The position numbers and the translations under genes were made by a program. The notes beneath the pieces are model-generated. The model was not told where the DNA came from and ran no database searches. It was given only the letters and a program-made list of their open reading frames with translations. This document shows positions 36,341 to 62,693 of a stretch of DNA of 64,000 nucleotides, one piece after another (position 1 is the first letter of the stretch; each line of letters starts with the position of its first letter). The DNA lies in NCBI GenBank assembly GCA_964450735.1, contig CAYVDC010000007.1, positions 1,374 to 65,373 of the forward strand, read 5' to 3'. Source of the stretch: an uncultured Candidatus Saccharibacteria bacterium. Lineage in GTDB: Bacteria > Patescibacteriota > Minisyncoccia > Phycocordibacterales > UBA9973.

Positions 36341-38713
36341 TTACACAGATTCTTGTAGTGGTGTTTCAGGCTCTTCTGCTGGAGCAGCAGGAGTAGGGGT
36401 TTCTTCTGGAACTGGAGTGTCGATAACTGGATTTTCTAATGGTGGAACTACTTCTTGTGTTCCTTCTGTTGTAGGCTCGACAGGTTGCAGTTCTGGCTCA
36501 GGAACTGGATCAGGTTCAGGGGCAGGACTAGGAGCAGGGACAATAACTGCTGTTCCGCACTCACCCGCAGTTTTTACAAAATCACCGTTAGCCAGTGTTA
36601 CGCAGTATGGAAGATGAGAAACAGTATCGTACATTGTAAATCCAGACGGTGTTTCTGGTGTTCCAAAGACAATGCTTTTTACATGAAGTACCATATCTGC
36701 GAATCGGCTTGCGAGCGAACTTGTGTCGCCTATTCCCTGAATAGAAGAAATTTTTATATCAAGTTCCTGAACAGCCTTGGTTAATACTGGAATGATTCCA
36801 GTATAGTTAAGCGAAAGATATTTGCCTTCTGTTACCAAATCTGGGAGAACAGTGCGGACTTCCTGGGCTATGAAGCCGATCTGTGGAGATCCGTCGCTAA
36901 TCATTCGGTATGTTACAGGACGCAGTGAATTGATGGTTTGCAAACCGTATGAGCTCGATGAAATATTTTGTTTCAATCGTTGGTCAGAAGAAATATTCAA
37001 GCTTTGTGTAATAACTCCGGTTGCGAAGATTTTTCCATCAACCTGGAGAAGTGCAGACCCATCGTCGATCTGATTGTTAGTATTTTCAAAATTATTGATA
37101 CCGATTCCAACTTTTCCATTTTTCAAAATTGTAAGAGCATCACTGTCTGAGCCTGTCCCCACACCATTACCAACAACGAAGAGTCGGTCCCTTGCATCAA
37201 AATCCAACGGGTCAAATGGTGTATAGTTTGTAGTGCTCAATCCTACTGACACTTCCGCGAACGATTTTGAAGATAATCTATAACCAATTGCGGTTGAGAC
37301 CTTGCCGCTCGCGGTTGCCTGCTGACCCATTGCAGTAGCATACTGGCCACTTGCAACAGTACCACTACCAAACGCAGTTGAAGTCGAACCTGAAGCAAGC
37401 GTACTCTGTCCGAACGCAGTTGCATTTTCATTGCTTGCGACAGAACCTGTGCCAAACGCGGTTGAAGCGTCAGCGCTTGCCGTACTTGATATTCCAAAAG
37501 CAGTTGCACCTGTACTGGACGCTGTTGTGGCAAAACCAAACGCAGTAGAAGCTATCCCAATGGAATCAGTATCTACTCCAAAGGCCACTGAACCATCATC
37601 ACCGGCATAGGTATTTGTTCCAAACGCTACAGTAAAGCGACCAACTGCATCTGTATTGTAACCGAAGGCCACGGCATAATCCCCAGAAGCGTTATTGCCG
37701 GAACCGAACACTGTCGTAAAATCACCGCTAGAAATAGTTCCGCTTCCGAGCGCTACACTGTGAAGGCCTGAAGCAATTGGTGCATCCAAACCTCGATCAT
37801 TGTCAGCAAAACCGATAGCAACGGAACGGTTGCCAATGTTGCCACCTTGCCATAAGCTGCCATTGACTGAACCAAGGCGTATCGCTTTTTGATCATAATT
37901 GAAGAAGAATTTTTGTTCCTCATTGAATTGGGTTACTGGAGTCATCTGCCACTTTTCTCCATCAATATAATTTGAAGAAACAAATGTAACATATACTCCA
38001 TCCTGCAATAGATCTGGAACTCCCGCATTGATTGGATTTCCTGTTGAAACAGTTACACCATTCAAAGTAAAAGTATAATCCGTTCCGCTTGGTTCAATTA
38101 TTACTGCATATACATCTGTGATACTGGAACCTGTATATGGTCCTTCAAAACCGACATCAGGGAATGAGCCAAAGTTTATAGGATTAGTTGTTGGTCCGAC
38201 GATTATCGTTGTTCCAGTATTATTATTAAAACTATCTGAATTAAATATAAATCCATTGCTTTTTACAGCCAGGCGATTTTGCCCGAGCATAATTTCGTTA
38301 GCTTCACTGGTTACTGCTCCATTCCCAATTGCGAACGAATTTGCCTGGCTTGCTGTACTAGCAGTTCCAAGTGCAATATTACCGATTTGCCCGAATTTCG
38401 CCATTTGAGAATTGTTCGTCTTAATGACAAAATCGGCTGCATCCGTCGTCCCAACAAAATTCGTTGTTCCTCCGTCAGTGCCTGCGTTTCCGGTAAGCCC
38501 CCAACCAACACCGTCACCAGTATTTTGAAAACAATTAGAAGAACCAGGAGCGCAACCTGGGTCGAGAATAGAATCTCCGAACAAATACCCGCCAGATGGA
38601 GGAACCGTGCCTGGAGAAAGCTGCGCAGAAAAAACTACAGCCCCATAACCCAAAACTGACAATACAGCTACGGAAAGAGAGACGAATTTTTTATACGGAA
38701 AAGCACGGAACAT
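36341..38713 (-). CDS. secreted fibre-like surface protein, paralog 1: signal peptide, conserved Cys-containing N-module, Gly/Ala/Ser/Thr-rich repeats (Hep_Hag/beta-helix-like), peptidase S74 intramolecular chaperone autoproteolysis domain, Pro/Glu-rich C-terminal tail
   Basis: N-terminus VLGYGAVVFSAQLSPGTVPPSGGYLFGDSILDPGCAPGSSNCFQNTGDGVGWGLTGNAGTDGGTTNFVGTTDA. The repeat region has recurring ..ATAFG..STASG.. units. The S74 block is SDQRLKQNISSSSYGLQTINSLRPVTYRM...IGFIAQEV...PVLTKAVQEL. The tail is PAPSPAPEPDPVPEPELQPVEP... Confidence 0.75.
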   Translation of the reverse strand: MFRAFPYKKFVSLSVAVLSVLGYGAVVFSAQLSPGTVPPSGGYLFGDSILDPGCAPGSSNCFQNTGDGVGWGLTGNAGTDGGTTNFVGTTDAADFVIKTNNSQMAKFGQIGNIALGTASTASQANSFAIGNGAVTSEANEIMLGQNRLAVKSNGFIFNSDSFNNNTGTTIIVGPTTNPINFGSFPDVGFEGPYTGSSITDVYAVIIEPSGTDYTFTLNGVTVSTGNPINAGVPDLLQDGVYVTFVSSNYIDGEKWQMTPVTQFNEEQKFFFNYDQKAIRLGSVNGSLWQGGNIGNRSVAIGFADNDRGLDAPIASGLHSVALGSGTISSGDFTTVFGSGNNASGDYAVAFGYNTDAVGRFTVAFGTNTYAGDDGSVAFGVDTDSIGIASTAFGFATTASSTGATAFGISSTASADASTAFGTGSVASNENATAFGQSTLASGSTSTAFGSGTVASGQYATAMGQQATASGKVSTAIGYRLSSKSFAEVSVGLSTTNYTPFDPLDFDARDRLFVVGNGVGTGSDSDALTILKNGKVGIGINNFENTNNQIDDGSALLQVDGKIFATGVITQSLNISSDQRLKQNISSSSYGLQTINSLRPVTYRMISDGSPQIGFIAQEVRTVLPDLVTEGKYLSLNYTGIIPVLTKAVQELDIKISSIQGIGDTSSLASRFADMVLHVKSIVFGTPETPSGFTMYDTVSHLPYCVTLANGDFVKTAGECGTAVIVPAPSPAPEPDPVPEPELQPVEPTTEGTQEVVPPLENPVIDTPVPEETPTPAAPAEEPETPLQESV

Positions 38714-38807: not shown

Positions 38808-40493
38808 TTACTGCACTACTACTTTTGCGGTAGTATCACCCGCTTTTAGGAAATAAATTCCTTTCGGCAAGTCTAATTGCAGTTGCTGTTTTGGAGAAGT
38901 AAGCTGATACGAAATCTGCTTGCTACCAATTACGTCATAAACATCTACCTTACCCAGGTTACGATAATCCTCGCTGGTTACAAAAAATGTACCATTATTA
39001 GGATTTGGGAATACTGTAAATGCGGTTTTAGAAACCGAAGCAACACCGGTCGGCGTGGCTATGGCAGGATATGTTTCAACCCGTAATTTGCTTGCATCCG
39101 CTCCGAACATCTCTGCTCGTATACCAGCGGGGAATTTGTAAATAAGGTTGTTGTACCTCATTTTCATATCAACCGTAGTGCCAGCAGGGATCGTTCCCTG
39201 TTGTACATACTGCACAGCTTTACTTTCAACCTGCAATGAGTTATCCGATGCATCAGGATTAAATATTTCTATTACTGAATTTTGGACAACCGTATCGAAT
39301 GGCGCTGCGCCAAGCGTGAACGGATTGTTTGCAGTACTGCTTACATAATACATCGGCAACCGCATGTCGGGGCCAATCTGCACATCTCTGTTTTGAGCAG
39401 GAATGTGTGTAGTAGCGAAATATTTCTCTTTCCAAAAAACGGAGCTCGCTAGATCAATCTGATTTCCATTTACGATAGCGAAATTAAATTTCGTAAAAAT
39501 CGTCATCAAGGCTGAATCTGACGCTCCAGGAAACATGTTTCTGAACACATCGAGCAACGCATCGATACCTACAGTATCACCAGCATGCCTGCCGTCATTA
39601 AAGGCTTGTGCCGCTTGAGCGGTACCAGTGTCGATAATAAACGTTGGAAACACATAACTAAACGTTATGGATTGTCCTGGAAGGAGTTTTAATTTTCCGT
39701 CCATATCCATAGTAGGAAACTGCTCCATTGGTGCGTAGGTTACTGGGTTGCGAGTGAAGAAATCTGCATACATCTCATTGCTAACTTCTGTTAGTTCGTA
39801 ACAGGAACGCGTTGGTGTTGTATAGCAATATCTTTTGGATGAATCCAGCCAAGAACGATGTTGAATGATATCTTCGGCAGACATGTAATTGTCGATCGTA
39901 CCGGGAACCTTATCCAAGGACCGCGGCTCGCCATCATCAGTATCAACCAAAATAGTATCGTTATTGTGGAACAATTCACCAAGGGTATGACCCTCGGTAG
40001 TCACAATACGCAGTGAGTCAGCTGAAATCATTCCTGTTTCCACCGCTACATGGTTGAAGAAGTTTTCACGTTCTCCGCACATGTGCGAGGCATTAGCCAG
40101 AAAAAATCCGCATGGGGTAAACTGCTTGCGTGCAACAAACCGGTCGAATCCATTGGGGCCGTACGAAGTGTACTCGGGATTCCGCAGGTGTACGATGTAC
40201 GGGCTTTTAACAAGCCTGGTCATCTCTCTGGTAAATCCGAAGGGGTCGCCTGTTGAAGCCATGTGATCATAATATGTTTGCTTGGTAGCAAAAATTATAT
40301 TATCACTGTCTTCAAACTGGGTTAGTAGGTAGAACTCCATGGGTACTGAATCGGTGTTTTGAATCGTCACACTAAAGCTGTCATTCGGGTTTGGAACATT
40401 CGCCGGAAAGCCTTTGAATAGTTCAACAACTTGTGCGTGTGAGGTAAAGGTAAAAAGCATTGCGGCAAAAGCCAGTAGATAGAATTTTTTCAT
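38808..40493 (-). CDS. secreted protein with C-terminal T9SS-type (Por) sorting domain
   Basis: Signal peptide MKKFYLLAFAAMLFTFTSHAQ. Last ~70 aa FPNPNNGTFFVTSEDYRNLGKVDVYDVIGSKQISYQLTSPKQQLQLDLPKGIYFLKAGDTTAKVVVQ match the Por_Secre_tail pattern (NP..., YD..G, LP.G(I/V)YF.K, K.V..). Confidence 0.6.
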   Translation of the reverse strand: MKKFYLLAFAAMLFTFTSHAQVVELFKGFPANVPNPNDSFSVTIQNTDSVPMEFYLLTQFEDSDNIIFATKQTYYDHMASTGDPFGFTREMTRLVKSPYIVHLRNPEYTSYGPNGFDRFVARKQFTPCGFFLANASHMCGERENFFNHVAVETGMISADSLRIVTTEGHTLGELFHNNDTILVDTDDGEPRSLDKVPGTIDNYMSAEDIIQHRSWLDSSKRYCYTTPTRSCYELTEVSNEMYADFFTRNPVTYAPMEQFPTMDMDGKLKLLPGQSITFSYVFPTFIIDTGTAQAAQAFNDGRHAGDTVGIDALLDVFRNMFPGASDSALMTIFTKFNFAIVNGNQIDLASSVFWKEKYFATTHIPAQNRDVQIGPDMRLPMYYVSSTANNPFTLGAAPFDTVVQNSVIEIFNPDASDNSLQVESKAVQYVQQGTIPAGTTVDMKMRYNNLIYKFPAGIRAEMFGADASKLRVETYPAIATPTGVASVSKTAFTVFPNPNNGTFFVTSEDYRNLGKVDVYDVIGSKQISYQLTSPKQQLQLDLPKGIYFLKAGDTTAKVVVQ

Positions 40494-40613: not shown

Positions 40614-43229
40614 TTATGATGCAGGAGCGATTTCTGGAGTAGGTTCTGGGGCAGGTTCAGAAGCTGGTTCTGGAGCAGGTTCTGGGGTTGGTTCTACGGT
40701 AGGTTCTGGAGTTGGTTCTAGTGTCGGTGGGGTTTCTACCAGCGGCTCTTCTGTCACCGTTTCCGGCTGAGGTTCTGTCGGGGTTTCCGAAACAACTGGT
40801 TCTTCTTGCGGAACTGGTTGCTGTGTCTGGCCGCCAGAATTATAGTTGTTTTGCTGAGGCAATAGCTGCTTGAGCTGCTGAAGTTGCGCACGTGTTATAC
40901 ATTCATCCGCATATCCTTCTTCTGACAAACAAATTTCATGAGTAAATATTCGCGCGATGCCATTGCTTGCATTTCCCAACCATCCGCTGATCGATGACAA
41001 AAATGTGCTGCTTGGGGTTGTAAGAGTATCCATTGAAGCTACTTTCAAATTGAGCTCTTGGACTGATTTAATGAGCAACGGGATAAATGTCTTGTAATCA
41101 ACCATCATATATCCATCTGTTCGATGACCTACAGCCTCTGGATAGAGTGGCTCAACTTGCTGCGCCAAGACTCCGGTATGCTGCTTATTATTGTCATTGA
41201 TGATAGATTGATCGTACATAAAATCAACCACTCTGATATTTTTCAAAACATCCAAACCGTATGAGGTATCAATGATATTTTGTTTTGTGCGCTGGTCGGA
41301 AGGAGCGGTCGTATCAATTGTGTTTGTTCCAATATAGAGAGTAGATGAGCCTGAACCGCTAGTAACGTCGCTAATCTTGTTGCTATCGCTATCAACACCA
41401 ATACGGAGACCAGTACGGAAAAAGTTCTGTGCTTCAGCATCGTCAATAAAGAGAGCATACTCCATACCTGAAGTCCCCTGGAGTGACGCATTGCTGAAAT
41501 AAATACCATAGACATCCGCAGCAGTCAGTGAAGGAACATCCGTTACACCATCAAAGGTGCTGCTGAAATTTATACCTTTGATTAAGTTTATTGCTTCAAT
41601 ACCTGGCTGATAGACACTTCCTTGCATTCCAGAAGAAAAGTTGATTCCATTCGTACTAAAAATAGAACCGGTGTTTCGAATGAACGAAGTAAGATGCATA
41701 ACGTCCGCATTATTAACAATACCTCCACTCTGTACAGTCACTCGAGCATCAATTCCAAAAGCATTATTGATGGTTGCGCCCGAAACGTTACTTGAAACCA
41801 CACTGTTGATTCCATATGCAGTATTTACGACTCCGGTTGCACTTAAGTTGGTTACACTGCCGTTAATTCCTTTCATGGCGTTAACAGTTCCTGTTCCCAA
41901 ATTTCCCGCCAGATTGTTTAAGCCATACAAATTATCAATATTGCCGGAACCTTGATGAAGTGCAGTACTATTGATACCGTTCATATTACTGATTGTTCCA
42001 GATGAAGTAGGGCTTGAAGCAACAGAAGCAGTAATACCCGCTATTCCACCAGTACCTGAGGCAGTAGAAACGTTAAAAGCGCCACCGTCCCAAACTGTTG
42101 AACCTGAGAGCGTAGAATATGCGGTATTGGTTGTATTTCCGGTAGCAGTCAAGGTGCCTTCAAATGTATTAAAGGTTCGGTTTGTAGAAGATGCAACTTC
42201 TGTAGATGCAATACCTCTGAAGCGGCCATTTAATTTCAAACGAATTGAAGTTGCATCAGAATCTCCTTCCCAGTTATTGATGCCGAATGCCGAGTTTCCA
42301 TTTTTTAGAATAGTAAACGCATCATTTTTGTCTGGCCATACACCCAATAGTGAATTATTGCCCGAGTCATTATCTCCATTACCGATACTAAACACCCGGT
42401 CTGTCGGTGACAAAAATTGCCCCAAACCAAGTGGAGTCGGTGTGTAATCTGTTCCATATGCACCAATAGATGTTTCATATGCAGAACGAGCGAAACTGCT
42501 CTGTCCAAAAGCAGTTGAAGCATAACCCGAGGCAATAGTGTCATAACCAAAAGCTGTCGAAGCAGAGTTGCTTGCTAATGTACCCTGACCAAAAGCAGTT
42601 GAGTCTGAGCCTGAAGCGGTATTGCTTGTTCCAAACGCGGTTGCGTTTTCTTCAATAGCACTTGTTCGGTCTCCAAATGCAGTAGCATATGGGCCAGTCG
42701 CCTTTGTACCAACGCCCCATGCAGTCGAAAGCTGTCCAGAAGCAAAAGGATAATCATAGTTACCTGTGCTTCCGCCCCACGCCATCGCTCCTTGTCCAGA
42801 CGCTGTTACTGCAATATTGCCATTAGTATCTGGTCCAACAAGAACACCATCAGTGTAATTTCCAAATGCGATATTTCCATTTTGGCCAAACCGGCCTATT
42901 TCTGCTCCATTGGTTTTTACAACAAAATCTACAGCATCAGTTGTTCCGATGAAATTTGTTGTTCCTCCGTCAGTTCCTGCATCACCGGTAAGAGCCCACC
43001 CCACACCATCCCCAGTATTTTGATAACAGTTGGCACTGCCCGGAGCACATCCTGGATTGAGAATACTGTCACCTGCTGCATATCCGCCACTTGGTGGCGT
43101 TGTGCCATCAGCTAGTTGCGCACCAAACACAACCACTCCATATCCGACAATGGAAAGCAGTGTGATAAAAAAAGAAAGAATCTTTCGGTGGGAAAAAAAC
43201 AATGATTTCATGTACAAAAAGTATACCAC
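40614..43229 (-). CDS. secreted fibre-like surface protein, paralog 2 (same architecture as paralog 1; 871 aa)
   Basis: Conserved N-module LSIVGYGVVVFGAQLADGTTPPSGGYAAGDSILNPGCAPGSANCYQNTGDGVGWALTGDAGTDGGTTNFIGTTDA. Gly/Thr/Asn-rich repeats. S74 block SDQRTKQNIIDTSYGLDVLKNIRVVDFMY...TGVLAQQVE...IPLLIKSVQELNLK. Pro-rich tail PEPTVEPTPEPAPEPASEPAPEPTPE. Confidence 0.75.
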   Translation of the reverse strand: MVYFLYMKSLFFSHRKILSFFITLLSIVGYGVVVFGAQLADGTTPPSGGYAAGDSILNPGCAPGSANCYQNTGDGVGWALTGDAGTDGGTTNFIGTTDAVDFVVKTNGAEIGRFGQNGNIAFGNYTDGVLVGPDTNGNIAVTASGQGAMAWGGSTGNYDYPFASGQLSTAWGVGTKATGPYATAFGDRTSAIEENATAFGTSNTASGSDSTAFGQGTLASNSASTAFGYDTIASGYASTAFGQSSFARSAYETSIGAYGTDYTPTPLGLGQFLSPTDRVFSIGNGDNDSGNNSLLGVWPDKNDAFTILKNGNSAFGINNWEGDSDATSIRLKLNGRFRGIASTEVASSTNRTFNTFEGTLTATGNTTNTAYSTLSGSTVWDGGAFNVSTASGTGGIAGITASVASSPTSSGTISNMNGINSTALHQGSGNIDNLYGLNNLAGNLGTGTVNAMKGINGSVTNLSATGVVNTAYGINSVVSSNVSGATINNAFGIDARVTVQSGGIVNNADVMHLTSFIRNTGSIFSTNGINFSSGMQGSVYQPGIEAINLIKGINFSSTFDGVTDVPSLTAADVYGIYFSNASLQGTSGMEYALFIDDAEAQNFFRTGLRIGVDSDSNKISDVTSGSGSSTLYIGTNTIDTTAPSDQRTKQNIIDTSYGLDVLKNIRVVDFMYDQSIINDNNKQHTGVLAQQVEPLYPEAVGHRTDGYMMVDYKTFIPLLIKSVQELNLKVASMDTLTTPSSTFLSSISGWLGNASNGIARIFTHEICLSEEGYADECITRAQLQQLKQLLPQQNNYNSGGQTQQPVPQEEPVVSETPTEPQPETVTEEPLVETPPTLEPTPEPTVEPTPEPAPEPASEPAPEPTPEIAPAS

Positions 43230-57000: not shown

Positions 57001-57597
57001 TTACTGATCGCCGTATTTTTTTGAAATTTCTCCGAGCACCAACATTATTTCTTCTTTGTGGTCGACAAAATCGATCTCTTTTGCAGCAAGCTTGTTCGCA
57101 AATGTTTTCCAATGCATGAGGTCTAGTCCTGCTGTATCGCGTTTATCAAGTTCAAGATCATTCTCATTCAAATCATGTTCGATCAAGTATACAGAAACAA
57201 ATTGCTTGCCGATCTTTCCATCATATCTAGTCTCTAGCTGCTTTATGATTCCAATTTTTCTAAACAGCGATTCGTCGATCGTGATCCCCAGTTCTTCTGA
57301 TAATTCGGTTTTGACTGCATCCATCTCTGTCTGATCCCCATCAACATATCCCCCAAATGATTCTGCCCACTTGCCGGGATTATTCATGACATGCATCGAG
57401 CGCTGTACCAGATATAATTCCCCTTTTGAATTGATGATCCATGCGTGAACTGATTTGCACCACAATCCTTGGTTGACGGCGTCATCAATCGTTCCCATTC
57501 CAACGAGTATGCGATCTTCATTGTAAATGCCAACCGGAGTGCGGCTCAGCACCACTTCGTTTCCAGCTATTATGATTGTTTCTGGTTGTTCTTCCAT
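57001..57597 (-). CDS. NUDIX hydrolase (start placed at MEEQPETIII; the longer ORF in the track would overlap the tRNA)
   Basis: Nudix-like box GGYVDGDQTEMDAVKTELSEELGI (Arg replaced by Thr). The in-frame ATG at 57597 sits immediately before the tRNA-Leu 3' end. Confidence 0.7.
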   Translation of the reverse strand: MEEQPETIIIAGNEVVLSRTPVGIYNEDRILVGMGTIDDAVNQGLWCKSVHAWIINSKGELYLVQRSMHVMNNPGKWAESFGGYVDGDQTEMDAVKTELSEELGITIDESLFRKIGIIKQLETRYDGKIGKQFVSVYLIEHDLNENDLELDKRDTAGLDLMHWKTFANKLAAKEIDFVDHKEEIMLVLGEISKKYGDQ

Positions 57598-57598
57598 G

Positions 57599-57682
57599 TG
57601 CTGGGAGGGAGACTCGAACTCCCACGGCCTTGCGGCCACTTGCACCTGAAGCAAGCGCGTCTACCAATTCCGCCATTCCAGC
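57599..57682 (-). tRNA. tRNA-Leu (anticodon CAG), type II with long variable arm; CCA not encoded
   Basis: Revcomp GCTGGAATGGCGGAATTGGTAGACGCGCTTGCTTCAGGTGCAAGTGGCCGCAAGGCCGTGGGAGTTCGAGTCTCCCTCCCAGCA: 7-bp acceptor stem, D arm, anticodon loop TTCAGGT, variable stem-loop GGCCGCAAGGCC, T arm GGGAG-TTCGAGT-CTCCC. Confidence 0.8.
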
Positions 57683-57780: not shown

Positions 57781-58053
57781 TTAGAATCGGCGAGGTGCGC
57801 CTTCTTCCTTTGGACGTGCAACAGCGACATGAATCATGCGGCCATCGAGTTCTTTGCCGTCAAGCATTGAAATCGCATTGTCCGCTTCTTCATCAGAAGC
57901 CATTTCAACAAAGCCGAAGCCGCGTGAGCGACCTGATACTTTGTCCATGACTACTGAAGCGCTGGAAACAGTTCCTGCAGCTGCGAAAGCATTGCGGAGG
58001 CTGTCATCGTTTGTAGCCCACGCGAGTGAGCTAACATAGAGTTTTTTTGCCAT
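57781..58053 (-). CDS. RRM-type RNA-binding protein
   Basis: RNP-2 LYVSSL and RNP-1 RGFGFVEM; ~90 aa with Gly/Arg-poor short tail. Confidence 0.8.
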   Translation of the reverse strand: MAKKLYVSSLAWATNDDSLRNAFAAAGTVSSASVVMDKVSGRSRGFGFVEMASDEEADNAISMLDGKELDGRMIHVAVARPKEEGAPRRF

Positions 58054-58069
58054 TGTTCAAATAGATACA

Positions 58070-58108
58070 AACTGGTTATCTCGACCGTACTTTTGCCGCA
58101 AACCGGGA
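58070..58108 (-). promoter_or_regulatory. hairpin in 5' leader of RRM-protein gene
   Basis: CTCGACCGT...ACGGTCGAG 9-bp stem with inner CCG/CGG pairing, 17-55 nt upstream of the start codon. Confidence 0.35.
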
Positions 58109-58236
58109 AACGGTCGAGCCCAAATACAGTGGTATTTAATCATATACGAGATGAAAAGTAAATAAAGAAAAAATCAAAGAAAAATGCCTGGAACACAAAG
58201 TGCCCAAGCATATAAAAAAAAATAAATAGCAGTTAA

Positions 58237-59961
58237 TTATGGGAGAGAGTCCCAAAACAATTTAAAATTTCTGGAACTAGCCAGTTTGCCACGATCGCGA
58301 GCAAATATAAATCTCAAGCTTGTGCTGGTACCGTAGTTCACGTCAAAATCCAGGCTTACGGTGTGCCAACCTGGTCCTACCGTACAAAGTCCGGAAAGTG
58401 CAGTATTAGGAAAAAGACTTTCTTCCACTCTATACTCTGTACCATTAAAAGCCACAGAAGTATCTCCATACAATTCACCCTGGATCCTAACGTGGAATTT
58501 ACCTGCAGGGATTGATTGGCTTATTGCACTCGCAAATGAATGCGGTGCATTAGTTGTGTCTCGGTCAATTTGAGCGAGACTTAATTTTACTCCATGAATA
58601 GGAGTAAAACCTGTTGGACCAGTGGGGCCAGTTGGGCCTCCACCTGAACCAGTTGCACCAGGTATACCTTGAGGTCCAGTTGCACCTGTGTTTCCGGCAA
58701 TTCCTTGCGGGCCAGTATCTCCAGTCGGACCATTTTGGCCATTGGTACCATTCGTACCTGAGGGACCTTGTGGGCCGGTTGGACCGGTTGGACCAGTAGC
58801 ACCAAAACCTGTAGGTCCGGTGTTTCCTTGTAAACCAGTTGCTCCCGTTGCACCAACTAAACCCTGAATGCCTTGCAATCCTGTTGCACCGGTAGGACCA
58901 GTGTTTCCAGAAACGCCTTGTGCACCAGTTGCTCCTTGTAAACCTGTTGCTCCAGTGTTGCCGATTAAACCTTGTGGTCCAGTATTTCCGGTTGCGCCTT
59001 GAGTGCCGCTAATTCCGGGAATGCCTTGAGGTCCAGTTACACCTTGTGCTCCCTGCAAACCAGTAGCTCCTGTAGCTCCAATCAAGCCTTGTGGGCCAGT
59101 GGGGCCAGTTGCGCCGCCACCTGCACCAGTCGGTCCTTGTAAGCCTGTAGGGCCAGTTGCTCCAGTAATACCAATTCCAGTTACGCCAGGTAATCCTGTC
59201 GAACCTGTAATTCCAGGAATACCCTGAGCACCGGTTGGACCGGTTACTCCTTGCAAACCCGTTACTCCACTTGCACCAGTAGGCCCTTGAAGCCCTAAAG
59301 CTCCTTGGGGTCCCGTTGGGCCAGTTATGCCAGTAGTACCTTGCAAACCTTGTGGTCCAGTATTTCCGGTTGCGCCTGTAATTCCCTGCGGGCCAGTAGT
59401 TCCATTAAGACCAGTTGAACCAGTTGCGCCGCGAGCACCAACAGTGCCGTTTAATCCTTGGACGCCAGCAGGTCCGGTTACACCGGGTATACCTTGCGGG
59501 CCAATTTGGCCTGCTGGGCCAGTTGCGCCAGTCGGGCCAGGATTATCAGCATACAAAGCACGAGCTGCATAAAGTGAGTATGGTACGCTCTCTAACTTGG
59601 TCGAACCCATATTGATATATGCAGTACCGCCGTTAGGATCAAGCTCAACTAGTAAATACACATCTGCTCCACCCCATGGAATGGTTGGAAAATCATATCG
59701 TGTATCAGTTGGCATGCCGCTGCCGATAACATGCGTAAACAGTCCGAATCGGTTGGTAGTCGCTGTATCAGTCTCCTGATACAATGGAAAACCATTGTTA
59801 ACGCGGTGCGTGAGGGTAAGTCGAAAATTTACAAGACGGCCAGCAAGCGCATTTCCGGAAGCGTCCCGGGCAATGGCTTGGTAATTGATGCCTTGCGGTG
59901 CCTGTGCATCCGCCACTAAAGTCATCAACGCAATAAGCGTGAGTAGTATGGTTGTTTTCAT
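58237..59961 (-). CDS. collagen-like triple-helix repeat protein with signal peptide and N- and C-terminal globular domains
   Basis: Signal peptide [21 protein letters not shown]. About 100 uninterrupted Gly-X-Y triplets ([25 protein letters not shown]...) rich in Thr/Gln/Pro. The ~125-aa C-terminal non-collagenous domain may be C1q/TNF-like. Confidence 0.8.
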
Positions 59962-60049
59962 AAAATATAATTGAGTATGTTGTTTTAAAATAAGTGTATT
60001 TCGTTCAGAGTGGCTGTGTTCAGACAGTTGCTTCGTATCGTAGCATTTA

Positions 60050-60079
60050 TTGACAAAAAGTCAAAAAATCGTTATAACG
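60050..60079. repeat. 30-nt perfect palindrome (nested with TTGACAAAAAGTCAA) between fibre paralog 3 stop and collagen-like gene start
   Basis: GTCAAAAAATCGTTA|TAACGATTTTTTGAC; AT-rich stem, so it could be a terminator or a protein-binding operator. Confidence 0.45.
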
Positions 60080-60109
60080 ATTTTTTGACTTTTTGATGCA
60101 GTTATTAGG

Positions 60110-62494
60110 CTATTCAACGGTTGGCTCGATGACTGGTGGATTATTCCCTTCTTCTGGCGTTGTAGGTTCTTGCGGCGCGACTGGTTCCTCGCTCGGAGGA
60201 GGCACGTCTTGTACGACTGGTTCCTGCGGTGGTGGTGGTAATTGACCTTGATAATTTGCTCCGCCAGCAATACCGTTTTTATCAAGAAGCTCGTTGAACT
60301 GGGCTTCAGTGATACAACGTTCTCCAACACAAATCTGATCTTTTGCTTTGATAGTACCGGCTACAATTTTCACAATACCGTTTGCTTGATTGCCGAGCCA
60401 ATCTCCCAATTTGTGGGCAAATGCGGTGTCGCTTGCATCAAAATTCTCAATGCCTTTTATTTTCAGATTAAGTTCTTTTATTCCCTCAGCAAGAACTGGG
60501 GTGATGTTTGCATAATTTACCGCGAGCATTCCATCAGCATTTTGAGAAATCAACTCTGGGAAGAATTGCTGAATGTTCTGAGCGATAAAACCGATGTGGT
60601 TCTGAGTAAGATCATCGCCTGAGTTCCATTTGTATTTGACCGTTCGAAGCTGATCGATCAGCTCAAGCGTATTGTTTGGAAGTGGAACAATATCGGTCTT
60701 CAAACGTTCATCAGAAGAACAGCTTACGCCCGAACCAACTACGATCGAACAGCTGTTGCCGATTCCGCCGTTGAAAACGATTTGGTTAATTCGGAAAGTC
60801 GTCGAGCCCAACATGAGCTCATTGGACGCATTATTTATAGCACCAGTACCGAGAGCGATGCTATTTGAAAATCCGCCAGTATTTGTGTCCTCACCGATCA
60901 AAATAGATGTTTGACCTCTCGTACTAGTAAGTACTGTTCCTGTTGCTCCATTTCCTACTCCTGTAATAGTTTCTCCATTTACGTATAGCACGGTTGTTGA
61001 GTTAGCAAACGTCAGTGTCGTACCATTAACAGAAACTATGACATTGCTAGCCCCCGATATTGATCCGAGTACTGTGTCGCCCGGAACGAAAGTTCCTGAT
61101 CCTGGAGTAAACGTAACCGTTGTAAGGGTGTTATTTATAGTATCAGAATAGCCGGCGTTTCTACCGATAAAGATCGAGTTGCGAGCAGTAGCCGCGGCCG
61201 ATCCTGCATTCATACCAATGAACATGGAGCCACCAGCTGAAGTAGCGCTTTTACCGGAATTTTCTCCAATAAAGATTGCCTGCGATGCACCTGTAGCATT
61301 TAAACCCGATTGATTACCAAAGAAAAATGAATGTGAGGCATTTGTTGCTCCTTTTCCGGCATAGATACCGACATATGTTGAGTCGTTGGCATTGGTTGCA
61401 TTCATACCGGCTTCAAATCCGATGATTGTTGTTCCGCTGGCATTTATTGCGTCCATACCGGCCCGAGCACCAAGAAATGTCGAAGAATAAGCACCTTCTC
61501 CGCTTGTTATAGAACCAGGAGAATATCCACTCATGTAGCCTGCGCGATACCCAATGAATGTTGAAACTGTTGCGAGATTTGCTTTATATCCTGATTCCGC
61601 TCCCAAGAAAGTTGATTGAGCTGCTCCTGATGCTCCATATCCCGCTTGGTAACCAATAAAATTTGAGCCTCCACTAAACCCCAAACCATTGGCGGTTGGT
61701 CCAAGAAAATCCGCAGTGCTTTGAGCATTGTATCCTGCCTGATACCCAAACAGGTTGGAATTATTCGCACCTTCAGCTCCCACCAATGCTGGACCTGCTC
61801 CTGCTTCATATCCAAAAATATTTGAGTCGTGAGCATTGTCCGCTCCATCACCGGCGCGGTATCCGAAGAAGTTAGAATTAAAAGCACCAGTCGCTGTATT
61901 TCCAGCAAGGGCGCCGACAAAGTTTGAATACGTTGCATCAGTTGCTCCAAAACCTGCGCGGTCACCGAAGAAAGTAGAGAATGCTCCGTTCACCGCGTCC
62001 TCACCCGCTCTGTTTCCGAAGAAGTTTGCATTGTTCGCTTCGCTTGCTCCGCAACCAGCGCGAAATCCGAAAAAGTTTGCATCGTTGGCGTTGATTGCGT
62101 TACAACCAGAAAGCTCGCCGAAATAGTTCGAGTGGTCAGCGTTCGTTGCGTTAAGTCCTGCGTTGGTACCAATGAAATTCGAGAAGCCAGCATTGTCAGC
62201 ATTCAAGCCTGCGTTGATACCAATAAATACTGTGTTGTCTTGTGAACCACCACTATCTCCGGCTCCATTTCCAAGCCATGTGTAGCTGCCTGTAGTAACC
62301 AGATAGTAGGGGTCAACAACGCAGTCAGTTGATTGCGGAGCGCAGCCCGGATTGAGAATACTATCGTTACCTGCTGAATATCCTCCTGTTGGAGGCAAAG
62401 TGCCATCTGGTAATTGTGCTGCAAAAACAACAAAGCCGTAGCCGATAATGGAAAGAATCGTTATAGAAAAAGTAAGAAGTTTTTTCGAGAACAT
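60110..62494 (-). CDS. secreted fibre-like surface protein, paralog 3 (same N-module and S74 domain; central region of ~14-residue Asn/Ala/Gly/Phe periodic repeats)
   Basis: N-module LSIIGYGFVVFAAQLPDGTLPPTGGYSAGNDSILNPGCAPQSTDC. Repeats ..NANFFGNRAGEDAVNGAFSTFFGDRAGFGATDATYSNFVGALAG.. S74 block SSDERLKTDIVPLPNNTLELIDQLRTVKYKW...IGFIAQNIQ...PVLAEGIKELNLK. Tail PPPPQEPVVQDVPPPSEEPVAPQEPTTPEE. Confidence 0.75.
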   Translation of the reverse strand: MFSKKLLTFSITILSIIGYGFVVFAAQLPDGTLPPTGGYSAGNDSILNPGCAPQSTDCVVDPYYLVTTGSYTWLGNGAGDSGGSQDNTVFIGINAGLNADNAGFSNFIGTNAGLNATNADHSNYFGELSGCNAINANDANFFGFRAGCGASEANNANFFGNRAGEDAVNGAFSTFFGDRAGFGATDATYSNFVGALAGNTATGAFNSNFFGYRAGDGADNAHDSNIFGYEAGAGPALVGAEGANNSNLFGYQAGYNAQSTADFLGPTANGLGFSGGSNFIGYQAGYGASGAAQSTFLGAESGYKANLATVSTFIGYRAGYMSGYSPGSITSGEGAYSSTFLGARAGMDAINASGTTIIGFEAGMNATNANDSTYVGIYAGKGATNASHSFFFGNQSGLNATGASQAIFIGENSGKSATSAGGSMFIGMNAGSAAATARNSIFIGRNAGYSDTINNTLTTVTFTPGSGTFVPGDTVLGSISGASNVIVSVNGTTLTFANSTTVLYVNGETITGVGNGATGTVLTSTRGQTSILIGEDTNTGGFSNSIALGTGAINNASNELMLGSTTFRINQIVFNGGIGNSCSIVVGSGVSCSSDERLKTDIVPLPNNTLELIDQLRTVKYKWNSGDDLTQNHIGFIAQNIQQFFPELISQNADGMLAVNYANITPVLAEGIKELNLKIKGIENFDASDTAFAHKLGDWLGNQANGIVKIVAGTIKAKDQICVGERCITEAQFNELLDKNGIAGGANYQGQLPPPPQEPVVQDVPPPSEEPVAPQEPTTPEEGNNPPVIEPTVE

Positions 62495-62604
62495 CAGTGC
62501 ACTTAGTATACCAAAAAACCTATATTCCGCATAGAAAAATCCTCTCTTTGTGGGGATATTTCTATAAGTAAATCCAACTACCGTAACCCGCTTCTGCGGG
62601 CGAA

Positions 62605-62693
62605 GGCGGAGAGAGGGAGATTCGAACTCCCGATACCATTTCTGATATACAACCTTTCCAGGGTTGCCGTTTCAACCGCTCACGCATCTCTCC
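62605..62693 (-). tRNA. tRNA-Ser (anticodon GGA), type II
   Basis: Revcomp GGAGAGATGCGTGAGCGGTTGAAACGGCAACCCTGGAAAGGTTGTATATCAGAAATGGTATCGGGAGTTCGAATCTCCCTCTCTCCGCC: perfect 7-bp acceptor stem, anticodon stem CAACC/GGTTG, loop CTGGAAA, long variable arm, T arm GGGAG-TTCGAAT-CTCCC. Confidence 0.8.

What the first reader, a model, noticed from the sequence alone, without database searches (positions are those of the whole stretch)
58237..62494. Second surface-protein island next to tRNA-Ser: collagen-like (GXY)~100 protein plus the third fibre paralog
A 574-aa secreted protein contains about 100 consecutive Gly-X-Y triplets flanked by N- and C-terminal globular domains. The ~125-aa C-terminal domain is the right size for a C1q/TNF-like trimerisation head, as in Bacillus BclA-type exosporium fibres. 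It lies directly downstream of fibre paralog 3, and the pair is bounded by tRNA-Ser(GGA) (62605-62693) on one side and tRNA-Leu/RRM gene on the other. tRNA-flanked surface-fibre cassettes are classic horizontally mobile or hyper-variable loci. Two trimeric fibre types (collagen triple helix and S74-chaperoned beta-helix) are co-localised.
Basis: partly seen in the sequence, partly recalled or inferred. Interest (0 to 1): 0.55.

Follow-up and report, generated by a model that had tools for sequence, protein, structure and literature searches.

The report
Swappable collagen-stalk surface fibre cassette
A tiny, probably host-dependent bacterium (Patescibacteria) carries, just after a tRNA gene, a replaceable two-gene cassette for long surface fibres; one fibre has a collagen stalk, a base domain like that of the prey-recognition fibres of predatory Bdellovibrio, and a tip seen nowhere else, so it is a candidate host-attachment device but a known kind of protein.

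Summary
ORF 58237-59961(-) encodes a 574-aa protein with 102 Gly-X-Y triplets in five blocks. ORF 60110-62494(-) is a third paralog of two S74-chaperone fibres. tRNA-Ser(GGA) and RRM/tRNA-Leu flank the pair.

The genome is a Patescibacterium (Paceibacteria-like). The segment 58173-62604, starting at the 3' end of tRNA-Ser, is variable cargo between conserved flanks:
- One close relative carries fibre plus a collagen gene with a longer stalk and an unrelated tip.
- One carries the fibre only.
- The closest carries neither.
- No integrase or att repeats are present.

The N-terminal domain is the informative part. It belongs to a family of more than 1,000 proteins, mostly Bacteroidota, and matches NCBIfam Bdello_MAT_N (mosaic adhesive trimer fibres of Bdellovibrio) below its cutoff. 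Family members join this base to collagen stalks of 0-290 triplets and to many unrelated tips (C1q, BclA_C, Lcl_C, S74).

The window's tip has no detectable relative. Its fold could not be settled, so the C1q/BclA idea is neither confirmed nor excluded.

Best reading: a secreted trimeric MAT-like adhesive fibre with a swappable tip, in a recombination hotspot. It is a new member of a known kind.

The parts
58173..62604 (.). Variable cassette (about 4.4 kb) between conserved flanks. It runs from the base after the 3' end of tRNA-Ser(GGA) to the start of the conserved RRM-gene promoter/5'UTR.
   Evidence: blastn of the window against L001, L002 and L003: similarity stops at 62605 and resumes at about 58170-58180. 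Alignment of the right junction. The cargo differs in each genome.
62605..62693 (-). tRNA-Ser(GGA); its 3' end is the left edge of the variable cassette.
   Evidence: ARAGORN; Rfam tRNA, 53.6 bits. A 132-bp exact match with L002 ends exactly at 62605.
60110..62494 (-). Fibre paralog 3 (794 aa). It has a signal-peptide-like N-terminus, a lineage-specific N-module shared with paralogs 1 and 2, NxxFxG-type repeats, an S74 intramolecular-chaperone domain, and about 145 further residues ending in a Pro/Glu-rich tail.
   Evidence: ORF; Pfam Peptidase_S74, E 2.7e-16; paralogy. PHROG and phage hits are limited to the S74 region. Orthologs sit at the same site in L001 (88% aa) and L003 (48% aa).
60698..60715 (-). 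S-D-E-R-L-K, the catalytic motif of the S74 self-cleaving chaperone (Ser594 ... Lys599).
   Evidence: Position computed. The same S-D-x-R-x-K motif is present in paralogs 1 and 2 and in the L003 ortholog. The SDxxxK motif is defined in PMC10769870.
60504..61504 (-). 1,001-bp tract of the fibre gene (aa 331-664: distal repeats, a small inserted domain and the S74 core). It differs by a single base from the L001 ortholog, although the surrounding DNA is 54-85% identical.
   Evidence: Sliding identity. Exact matches of 953 + 47 bp. Outside the tRNAs, the longest other exact match with L001 is 41 bp.
60054..60095 (.). 42-bp perfect palindrome between the fibre stop codon and the collagen start codon. 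It is a candidate terminator and/or operator, and its 3' arm contains the -35-like TTGACT hexamer.
   Evidence: Inverted repeat I1, 21+21 nt, 100% complementary. RNA hairpin of -24.4 kcal/mol, z -6.96. It is conserved in L001 with one compensatory A>G / T>C change and is unique in the window.
60037..60064 (-). Promoter-like site for the collagen gene (TTGACT, 16 nt, TACGAT, with an upstream TG).
   Evidence: Consensus scan; this is not statistically enriched. Both hexamer regions are conserved in L001.
58237..59961 (-). Collagen-stalk fibre gene (574 aa).
   Evidence: ORF; Pfam Collagen, E 3.1e-42.
59902..59961 (-). Signal-peptide-like N-terminus (aa 1 to about 19-20; A-D-A|Q).
   Evidence: Read directly from the sequence. 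Homologs start the conserved domain right after an equivalent hydrophobic leader.
59539..59901 (-). N-terminal beta-sandwich base domain (aa 21-141), MAT-N-like.
   Evidence: Profile search: 1,108 proteins at E<=1e-3. NCBIfam Bdello_MAT_N, E 1.4e-6, 28 bits, cutoff 60; 15 of 15 relatives match, best E 2.5e-11. AF2 model pLDDT 83.4, 6 strands. No PDB or viral fold match at E<=1e-3.
58603..59538 (-). Collagen-like stalk: 102 Gly-X-Y triplets with four interruptions ([28 protein letters not shown]). The Y position is 47% Thr and 24% Gln; there are only two charged residues.
58240..58602 (-). Orphan C-terminal tip domain (aa 454-574), predicted all-beta.
   Evidence: No relative was found in 5.8e9 proteins, 1.84e9 representatives (only spurious repeat-protein hits), PDB sequences, Pfam at E<=10 or metagenome contigs. 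AF2 pLDDT 49.7. Foldseek gave only weak jelly-roll matches.
57781..58053 (-). RRM RNA-binding protein gene; the right conserved flank.
   Evidence: Pfam RRM_1; 91-96% aa identity in L001-L003.
57598..57682 (-). tRNA-Leu(CAG), part of the right conserved flank.

Best explanation
**What it is.** The 574-aa gene encodes a Sec-exported, homotrimeric surface fibre built like the 'mosaic adhesive trimer' (MAT) fibres of Bdellovibrio.

- **Base.** A conserved beta-sandwich domain of about 120 aa directly follows the signal peptide. It would hold the fibre on the producer's surface.
- **Stalk.** A collagen triple helix replaces the usual beta-helix. Its 102 triplets would span roughly 85-90 nm, with four kink sites.
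- **Tip.** A variable 121-aa beta-rich domain at the far end would bind a ligand on another cell or surface.

**The cassette.** The gene lies next to an S74-chaperoned beta-helical fibre gene in a 4.4-kb cassette just 3' of tRNA-Ser(GGA). In this Patescibacterial lineage the cassette is gained, lost and re-assorted by recombination between conserved flanks, not by an integrase-bearing element. Tips, stalk length and whole genes are exchanged.

**Shown here:**
- the anatomy of the protein;
- homology of the base domain;
- modular tip diversity in the family;
- variability of the locus;
- the recombination tract in the fibre gene.

**Inferred:**
- trimer formation (from established collagen and MAT knowledge);
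- surface display;
- the adhesive or host-recognition role.
For: - **Architecture.** The protein reads as signal-like leader, N-domain, 102 GXY triplets, C-domain.
- **Base domain family.** The profile finds 1,108 proteins at E<=1e-3. The named ones are all Bacteroidota.
- **MAT link.** NCBIfam Bdello_MAT_N matches the window protein (E 1.4e-6) and 15 of 15 relatives (best E 2.5e-11).
- **Published MAT definition** (PMC10769870). It describes a signal peptide, a conserved ~130-aa beta-rich N-domain proposed to be cell-proximal and without PDB homologue, a trimeric fibre, and variable tips (S74, TNF-like, C-type lectin, new beta-sandwiches). Its Supplementary Table S3 already lists a collagen-like FCB-group member.
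- **Fold of the base.** My model is a confident beta-sandwich (pLDDT 83.4) with no significant PDB or viral match. This agrees with the paper.
- **Tip modularity.**
  - Among the 120 best relatives there are at least 20 BLAST-unrelated tips.
  - They include C1q, BclA_C and Lcl_C (C-type-lectin-like).
  - Stalks range from 0 to 290 triplets.
  - Nine metagenome loci have base plus S74 in one ORF, some also with collagen.
- **Tip swapping at this locus.** The L001 ortholog has a base 60% identical, 160 triplets with the same interruption motifs, and an unrelated tip.
- **Locus variability.** The window, L001, L002 and L003 carry four different cargos between flanks with sharp boundaries.
- **Recent recombination.** A 1,001-bp tract of the fibre gene differs by one base from L001, against 82% nucleotide identity in the neighbouring htpX gene.
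- **Not phage.** The base domain is absent from 50,697 phage genomes and present in 1 of 2.9 million viral contigs. Both proteins have secretion-type leaders.
Against: - The Bdello_MAT_N match is below NCBI's cutoff (28 against 60 bits; the best relative reaches about 44 bits by my estimate). The base domain is therefore a distant sister of the Bdellovibrio domain, not a scored member.
- I could not superpose my model on a Bdellovibrio MAT N-domain.
- Nothing here shows trimerisation, surface display or binding.
- The tip fold is unresolved.
- No anchoring partner is known. The base domain evolved mainly in diderm Bacteroidota, and Patescibacteria have a different envelope, so the anchoring logic may not transfer.
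- The neighbouring S74 fibres do not carry the MAT-type base. The two genes may therefore be functionally unrelated neighbours.
- The identical 1-kb tract could be a co-assembly artefact in one of the two metagenome-assembled genomes.
Confidence: 0.6

Rival explanations
1. **BclA/C1q-type fibre.** The C-terminal domain would be a C1q/TNF jelly-roll that nucleates the trimer and forms the distal knob, as in Bacillus exosporium BclA.
For: - The tip is the right size (121 aa) and is predicted all-beta.
- The stalk is Thr-rich at the Y position and almost uncharged, like BclA (the BclA composition is from general knowledge).
- Relatives with the same base domain do carry C1q (P0048, P0123) or BclA_C (P0130) tips.
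- The weak Foldseek list includes TNF, BclA and ExsFA/BxpB.
- TNF-like tips occur in Bdellovibrio MATs.
Against: - No C1q or BclA_C Pfam match even at E<=10.
- hhalign against C1q/BclA-type heads gives probability 0.1%.
- No PDB sequence match at E<=10.
- The model is low-confidence, and no Foldseek hit reaches E<=1e-3; CBM-type jelly rolls rank above TNF.
- Patescibacteria are not known to form spores. The N-domain is the MAT-type base, not a BclA exosporium-targeting peptide.
Confidence: 0.15
2. **Classical integrative island.** A mobile element would have inserted site-specifically into tRNA-Ser(GGA), bringing both fibre genes.
For: - The cassette starts exactly at the tRNA 3' end.
- Presence/absence polymorphism among relatives.
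- Serine-recombinase-like ORFs lie a few kb from the same tRNA in the more distant relatives L016 and L069.
- GC3 of the collagen gene is the lowest in the window.
Against: - There is no integrase or recombinase in the cassette.
- There is no duplicated tRNA 3' segment or other direct repeat at the far edge.
- The 'empty' genomes are not empty; they hold other small genes (DoxX, HIT) at the site.
- The fibre gene is old at this site (48% ortholog in L003).
- The GC3 deviation is only -1.7 sd and is shared with fibre paralogs elsewhere in the window.
Confidence: 0.1
3. **Prophage remnant.** The two genes would be left-over phage tail-fibre genes: a collagen-like tail fibre plus an S74 tail fibre or spike.
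For: - Many PHROG tail-fibre families match both proteins.
- 374 phage genomes match the fibre.
Against: - All PHROG and phage matches fall on the collagen repeats or the S74 region only.
- There are no other phage genes; the flanks are housekeeping genes.
- Both proteins begin with secretion-type leaders, which phage fibres lack.
- The N-domain has no match in 50,697 phage genomes and occurs in only one viral contig.
- No viral relative of the fibre's central tract was found.
Confidence: 0.05
4. **Structural coat protein rather than an adhesin.** The collagen fibre would form a hair-like nap, sheath or matrix that spaces or protects the cell, and the tip would serve only for folding.
For: - BclA-type naps and other bacterial collagens can be structural (general knowledge).
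- The stalk is uncharged and Thr/Gln-rich.
- No binding evidence exists.
Against: - The pattern of a conserved base with rapidly replaced tips is what is expected of a recognition device, not of a folding nucleus. This pattern appears in the family and between two genomes whose HtpX proteins are 89% identical.
- The closest relative dispenses with the gene altogether.
Confidence: 0.15

Closest known systems
Mosaic adhesive trimer (MAT) fibres of Bdellovibrio bacteriovorus (Caulton et al. 2024, PMC10769870; NCBIfam NF053851 Bdello_MAT_N)
   Same: [quoted passage not shown]
- S74 and non-S74 versions both exist in the wider family.
- Tip swapping occurs.
- The base domain has no PDB homologue.
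- The producer depends on contact with other cells.
- The paper's Table S3 already lists FCB-group members, one of them labelled collagen-like.
   Different: - The base domain matches the Bdellovibrio model only below its cutoff (28 bits against 60).
- The stalk is a collagen triple helix, not a beta-helix or beta-prism.
- The host is a Patescibacterium, a group not listed in the paper's table and not found in my literature searches.
- The tip is an orphan.
- There is a single copy in 64 kb, whereas B. bacteriovorus HD100 has 21 genes.
Bacteroidota 'collagen-like protein' / hypothetical proteins with the PQG-x-NYQA-x-AR N-domain (hits P0001-P0135)
   Same: - The same base domain, 35-62% identical.
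- The same order of base, optional collagen, tip.
- The closest relatives (P0040, P0051, P0106) also have collagen stalks.
   Different: - Most listed members are short (about 250-310 aa), and many are truncated at contig ends.
- They come from diderm contexts (OmpA, Por_Secre_tail, OMP neighbours).
- None shares the window's tip.
BclA exosporium collagen-like glycoprotein of Bacillus (Pfam BclA_C PF18573; PDB 1WCK)
   Same: - Order of N-terminal attachment part, Thr-rich collagen stalk, C-terminal beta-rich knob of about 120-135 aa.
- An almost uncharged stalk.
   Different: - The tip does not match BclA_C or C1q.
- The N-terminal part is a 120-aa folded domain of another family.
- There is no spore context.
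Phage tail fibres and spikes with a C-terminal intramolecular chaperone (Peptidase_S74: K1F endosialidase, T5 pb1), for the neighbouring gene
   Same: S74 domain with the S-D-x-R-x-K motif after a repeat-rich, presumably beta-helical shaft.
   Different: - A secretion-type leader and a lineage-specific N-module are shared by the three paralogs.
- About 145 residues follow the Pfam S74 match, ending in a Pro/Glu-rich tail.
- The gene is chromosomal and is not in a phage.

Membership tests
Collagen triple-helix repeat proteins (Pfam PF01391) | Long uninterrupted runs of Gly-X-Y | tested here: met
   102 triplets, longest run 41. Pfam Collagen E 3.1e-42, 142.6 bits against a cutoff of 27.2.
MAT (mosaic adhesive trimer) superfamily | [quoted passage not shown] | tested here: inconclusive
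   NCBIfam Bdello_MAT_N hits aa 10-85 at E 1.4e-6, but with 28.2 bits against a cutoff of 60. 15 of 15 relatives also hit, best E 2.5e-11. The model is a 6-strand beta-sandwich with pLDDT 83.4. No direct structural superposition on a Bdellovibrio N-domain was possible.
MAT (mosaic adhesive trimer) superfamily | Trimeric fibre along the whole length | not testable with these tools
   Inferred from the collagen repeats. No multimer prediction or experiment was available.
MAT (mosaic adhesive trimer) superfamily | Variable, independently folding C-terminal tip on a conserved base ('tip swapping') | tested here: met
   The window and L001 tips are unrelated (BLASTP E 9.7; hhalign probability 0.1%), while the bases are 60% identical. 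At least 20 unrelated tips occur among 120 relatives.
MAT (mosaic adhesive trimer) superfamily | Display on the producer's surface and binding to another cell's surface | not testable with these tools
   Only a signal-peptide-like leader can be seen.
BclA / C1q-TNF headed collagens | C-terminal C1q (PF00386) or BclA_C (PF18573) jelly-roll domain | tested here: inconclusive
   By sequence the feature is not met: no Pfam hit at E<=10, hhalign probability 0.1%, no PDB sequence hit. By fold it is undecided: pLDDT 49.7, and only non-significant jelly-roll matches, with TNF/BclA at E 0.1-0.3 and TM 0.33-0.40.
LPXTG-anchored streptococcal collagen-like adhesins (Scl1/Scl2) | C-terminal LPXTG sortase signal | tested here: not met
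   No LPxTG motif. The NCBIfam SclA/SclB hits cover only the repeats and fall far below cutoff.
Legionella Lcl-type collagen adhesin | Lcl C-terminal domain (PF07603) | tested here: not met
   No Pfam hit. hhalign against 17 Lcl_C heads gives probability 0.1%. The NCBIfam adhesin_Lcl score is 149 bits against a cutoff of 500, on the repeats only.
S74 intramolecular-chaperone fibres (neighbouring gene) | Peptidase_S74 domain with the catalytic Ser ... Lys (SDxxxK) motif | tested here: met
   Pfam 60 bits against a cutoff of 22. SDERLK at aa 594-599. The motif is conserved in paralogs and orthologs. Self-cleavage itself was not tested.
tRNA-integrated genomic island | Integrase or recombinase gene, and direct repeats derived from the tRNA 3' end | tested here: not met
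   The cassette holds only the two fibre ORFs. The only tRNA-related repeat is the T-arm similarity between the two tRNAs (D9).
tRNA-integrated genomic island | Presence/absence polymorphism at a tRNA 3' end | tested here: met

The most novel reading that the evidence does not exclude
This Patescibacterium, which probably depends on a host, would use a MAT-type fibre as a host-recognition device. The fibre is a Bacteroidota/Bdellovibrio-style base carrying a collagen stalk of about 90 nm and a tip of a so far unseen type. The lineage would retarget the fibre by swapping tips and whole genes through recombination at the tRNA-Ser hotspot. The gene family may have been acquired from Bacteroidota.
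Probability: 0.3. Interest if true: 0.7.

Novelty: new member of a known kind. Interest (0 to 1): 0.48.

Why it matters
How Patescibacteria (the candidate phyla radiation) find and hold on to their hosts is largely unknown outside a few cultivated Saccharibacteria. These results offer a concrete candidate for such a recognition system.

- The fibre has the base-stalk-tip logic of the Bdellovibrio prey-recognition fibres.
- It sits in a locus that differs between genomes whose HtpX proteins are about 90% identical.
- Its tip is replaced between relatives.
- A freshly recombined S74 fibre gene lies next door.

The results also show that the MAT-type base domain is very widespread. More than 1,000 proteins were detected, mostly from Bacteroidota. 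The base is combined freely with collagen stalks and with C1q, BclA, lectin-like and S74 ends. This broadens the published picture of that family.

If the function is only structural, the finding is an ordinary variable surface-protein locus.

Tried and rejected
- **Exact look-up of the collagen protein in public assemblies.** It is not on record.
- **Homolog searches for the tip.**
  - Word-indexed search: nothing.
  - Exhaustive phmmer over 1.84e9 representatives: seven hits, all tandem-repeat proteins that sum weak stretches. I judged them spurious after reading them.
  - PDB sequences, Pfam at E<=10 and the metagenome contig scan: nothing.
  - tblastn against all 166 held loci: nothing.
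- **Structure of the tip.** Single-sequence AF2 gave pLDDT 49.7, and the Foldseek list is not significant. I do not use it to assign a fold.
- **hhalign of both tips** against C1q/BclA, Lcl_C and 'headB' alignments from the family: probability at or below 0.5%. A shared 'PG-x-HT' motif with headB turned out not to be significant.
- **att-site search.** No tRNA-derived direct repeat at the far cassette edge.
- **Tandem-repeat instability.** TRF finds only short arrays of about two to three copies in the collagen gene, so simple slippage is not obvious.
- **Phage origin.** Rejected.
- **Rfam scan of the region.** Only the two tRNAs pass.
- **Literature.** No paper in the held library links collagen-like, S74 or MAT proteins to Patescibacteria.
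- **Technical failures.** One script timed out, one failed on parsing, and one returned nothing because of an identity filter. They were replaced.

Full report
**1. What is there.**
The stated coordinates span two minus-strand ORFs: 58237..59961 (574 aa) and 60110..62494 (794 aa). ARAGORN and Rfam place tRNA-Ser(GGA) at 62605-62693(-) and tRNA-Leu(CAG) at 57598-57682(-). The 574-aa product has four parts:
- a hydrophobic, signal-peptide-like start ([19 protein letters not shown]|QA);
- a 120-aa N-domain;
- 102 Gly-X-Y triplets in five blocks (41, 6, 34, 18, 3), separated by four short interruptions;
- a 121-aa C-domain.

Pfam Collagen scores E 3.1e-42. The stalk has Thr (47%) or Gln (24%) at the Y position and Pro (26%) or Ala at the X position. 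It has only two charged residues and no LPXTG motif.

The 794-aa product has a Peptidase_S74 domain (E 2.7e-16) that begins with SDERLK at aa 594. It is a paralog of 36341..38713 and 40614..43229, sharing the first ~150 residues and the S74 region.

**2. Whose genome.**
The flanking genes are housekeeping genes: HtpX/M48, RRM protein, three NUDIX proteins, methionine aminopeptidase, Mur ligases, GyrB and PheT. HtpX finds 80 loci in species-representative genomes. All are Patescibacteria (Paceibacteria / Nomurabacteria-type MAGs), and the best reach 89-91% identity.

**3. The locus is variable cargo between fixed flanks.**
Three relatives keep both flanks: HtpX-tRNA-Ser on one side and RRM-tRNA-Leu-NUDIX... 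on the other.

| Genome | HtpX identity | Cargo between the flanks |
|---|---|---|
| Window | (reference) | fibre, collagen gene |
| L001 | 89% | DUF4440, YdeI/OmdA, fibre (88% aa), collagen gene |
| L002 | 91% | one DoxX-like gene only |
| L003 | 79% | HIT gene, fibre (48% aa); no collagen gene |

- DNA similarity ends exactly at the tRNA-Ser 3' end (62605). It resumes at about 58170-58180, where the conserved RRM promoter and 5'UTR begin.
- Among the 12 loci that keep tRNA-Ser next to HtpX, the downstream content differs in every one.
- Only L001 among the 80 loci has a collagen ORF.
- There is no integrase and no att-like repeat.
- The collagen gene's high G+C is an amino-acid effect. Its GC3 (0.303) is the lowest in the window, but only 1.7 sd from the mean, and it resembles fibre paralogs 1 and 2.

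I therefore read this as a recombination hotspot with cassette replacement, not a classical integrated element.

**4. Recent exchange in the fibre gene.**
Window 60504-61504 (fibre aa 331-664) differs from L001 by one base in 1,001 bp. Neighbouring 100-nt windows are 54-85% identical, and the htpX gene is about 82% identical at the nucleotide level. This points to a very recent transfer of the distal part of the fibre between two diverged lineages. The alternative is a co-assembly artefact, which only read mapping can exclude.

**5. The collagen protein's N-domain is the key.**
- *Family size.* A first search found 14 relatives. A profile of these found 1,108 proteins at E<=1e-3. Every named one is from Bacteroidota.
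- *Contexts.* Two sampled relatives have OmpA or Por_Secre_tail neighbours, and a close relative's short contig carries an outer-membrane-protein-like neighbour.
- *Architecture.* Relatives consist of leader, N-domain, then either nothing, a collagen stalk, or other repeats, then a tip.
- *Tips.* Pfam-recognised tips include C1q (PF00386), BclA_C (PF18573), Lcl_C/DUF1566 (PF07603), YadA head and S74. Among the 120 best hits, the tips fall into at least 20 BLAST-unrelated groups.
- *Metagenome contigs.* The family spans 221-2250 aa and 0-290 triplets. Nine loci carry the N-domain and an S74 domain in one ORF, and in some of them a long collagen stalk lies between the two (L084, L097, L155).
- *MAT link.* NCBIfam NF053851, 'Bdello_MAT_N, mosaic adhesive trimer family chimeric fiber protein', matches the window protein at E 1.4e-6 (28 bits, cutoff 60). 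It also matches all 15 sequences of my alignment, best E 2.5e-11.

Caulton et al. 2024 (PMC10769870) define MATs as follows:
- a signal peptide followed by a conserved ~130-aa beta-rich N-domain;
- that N-domain is proposed to sit next to the cell and has no PDB homologue;
- a trimeric fibre and a variable tip (S74, TNF-like, C-type lectin, new beta-sandwiches);
- they are displayed on the predator surface, and one binds prey glycans;
- Supplementary Table S3 lists FCB-group members, including a 'collagen-like' one, but no Patescibacteria.

My AF2 model of the N-domain is a confident beta-sandwich (pLDDT 83.4). It has no PDB or viral match at E<=1e-3, only generic Ig-like similarities. This agrees with the paper's statement.

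**6. The tip.**
- *Sequence.* The 121-aa C-domain has no detectable relative. Nothing turned up in 5.8e9 clustered proteins, PDB sequences, Pfam at E<=10, metagenome contigs or the held loci. Only spurious hits turned up in 1.84e9 representatives.
- *Relation to L001.* It is unrelated to the L001 tip.
- *Relation to family heads.* It is also unrelated to the C1q/BclA, Lcl_C or 'headB' heads of the family.
- *Structure.* The single-sequence model is all-beta but unreliable (pLDDT 49.7). Its Foldseek list contains only non-significant jelly rolls: CBM16/4/6, TNF family, BclA, ExsFA.

**7. Allelic divergence.**
The window and L001 N-domains are only 60% identical. L001's is 73-75% identical to environmental proteins P0040, P0051 and P0106. 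The L001 stalk has 160 triplets and an internal duplication of about 600 nt, at 78% identity. It keeps the same paired interruption motifs (GIGITG ... GxGGGATG). The collagen gene therefore diverges or is replaced far faster than its flanks. This suits a gene under diversifying pressure or repeated exchange.

**8. Regulation.**
- A unique 42-bp perfect palindrome (60054-60095) lies between the fibre stop codon and the collagen start codon.
- It is kept in L001 through one compensatory change.
- It folds as a strong hairpin (z -6.96).
- It overlaps the -35-like hexamer of a promoter-like site with an extended -10.
- It may terminate the fibre transcript and/or act as an operator. This is inference.

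**9. Mechanism proposed.**
- *Shown:* the architecture, the homology of the base, the modular tips, the locus variability and the recombination tract.
- *Inferred:*
  - Sec export;
  - trimerisation into a collagen rod of about 85-90 nm (306 residues x 0.286 nm);
  - the base held at the cell surface and the tip presented outward;
  - binding to a surface of another cell.

This is the MAT logic applied to an organism that probably lives on other cells. The adjacent S74 fibre would be a second, independent adhesin. It lacks the MAT-type base.

**10. Rivals.**
- A BclA/C1q-type fibre: not excluded for the tip fold, excluded for family membership by sequence.
- A classical integrative island: its hallmarks are absent.
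- A prophage remnant: the base domain is absent from phages, the proteins have secretion leaders, and the flanks are housekeeping genes.
- A purely structural coat protein: disfavoured by the tip turnover.

**11. Verdict.**
This is a real and nicely variable surface-fibre cassette. The collagen protein is a new member of a known kind: MAT-type, collagen-stalked chimeric fibres. It comes from a phylum where such fibres have not been described in the literature I could search, and it carries an orphan tip. Interest is moderate. It is a good lead for host recognition in Patescibacteria, but it is not a new principle.

Noticed in passing
window 38808-40493 (-): A 561-aa protein lying between fibre paralogs 1 and 2 ends in a Por_Secre_tail / T9SS type A sorting domain (Pfam E 4.1e-8; TIGR04183 E 3.5e-8). 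That signal belongs to Bacteroidota-type secretion and is unexpected in a Patescibacterium. Together with the Bacteroidota-centred N-domain of the collagen protein, it hints at gene flow from Bacteroidota.
   Followed up: partly
window 60504-61504; L001 5468-6468: A 1,001-bp tract of the S74 fibre gene differs by one base between two genomes whose flanking DNA is 54-85% identical. This is either recent recombination of the distal fibre part or a co-assembly artefact.
   Followed up: yes
window 60054-60095: A unique 42-bp perfect palindrome between the two fibre genes. It is conserved in L001 with one compensatory pair change and overlaps a -35-like hexamer.
   Followed up: partly
window 58054-58172 (upstream of the RRM gene): The 5' region of the RRM-protein gene is highly conserved in L001-L003, with a 93-bp exact match to L002. 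It contains an 8-bp stem (CTCGACCG ... CGGTCGAG) with a variable loop, so it may be a regulatory 5'UTR hairpin. There is no Rfam match.
   Followed up: no
L016 14550-15878 (-); L069 15620-17206 (+): ORFs that look like large serine recombinases, judged by eye from the N-terminal Y-x-R-x-S-T motif; no family search was run on them. They lie a few kb from the same tRNA-Ser(GGA) in more distant Paceibacteria. The tRNA may therefore also serve as an integration site in the wider group.
   Followed up: no
L084 2153-5923; L097 9929-16687; L155 1857-4841: Single ORFs in metagenome contigs combine the MAT-type N-domain, a long collagen stalk (95, 290 and 62 triplets) and a C-terminal S74 chaperone. 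The two fibre types that are neighbours in the window are thus fused in one polypeptide elsewhere.
   Followed up: partly
window 36341-38713 (-) and 40614-43229 (-): Fibre paralogs 1 and 2 carry YadA-head repeats (Pfam E 3.1e-29 and 1.4e-7) in front of the S74 domain. Paralog 3 has related NxxFxG repeats that Pfam does not score.
   Followed up: no
window 60110-60550 (fibre aa 649-794): About 145 residues follow the Pfam S74 match, ending in a Pro/Glu-rich tail (QLPPPPQEPVVQDVPPPSEEPVAPQEPTTPEE...). The L001 and L003 orthologs also end in Pro-rich tails of different sequence. If the chaperone self-cleaves, this tail would be released with it; its role is unknown.
   Followed up: no
L083 5941-7527 (IMG/VR contig IMGVR_UViG_3300011586_000008): This is the only viral-collection contig (of 2.9 million) that encodes the N-domain (40% identity), in a 528-aa ORF. 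I did not check whether it is a true phage gene.
   Followed up: no
window 57001-57654 (-): The listed TTG start of this NUDIX ORF overlaps tRNA-Leu (57598-57682). The real start is probably the internal ATG (MEEQPETIII...), as in L001-L003.
   Followed up: no
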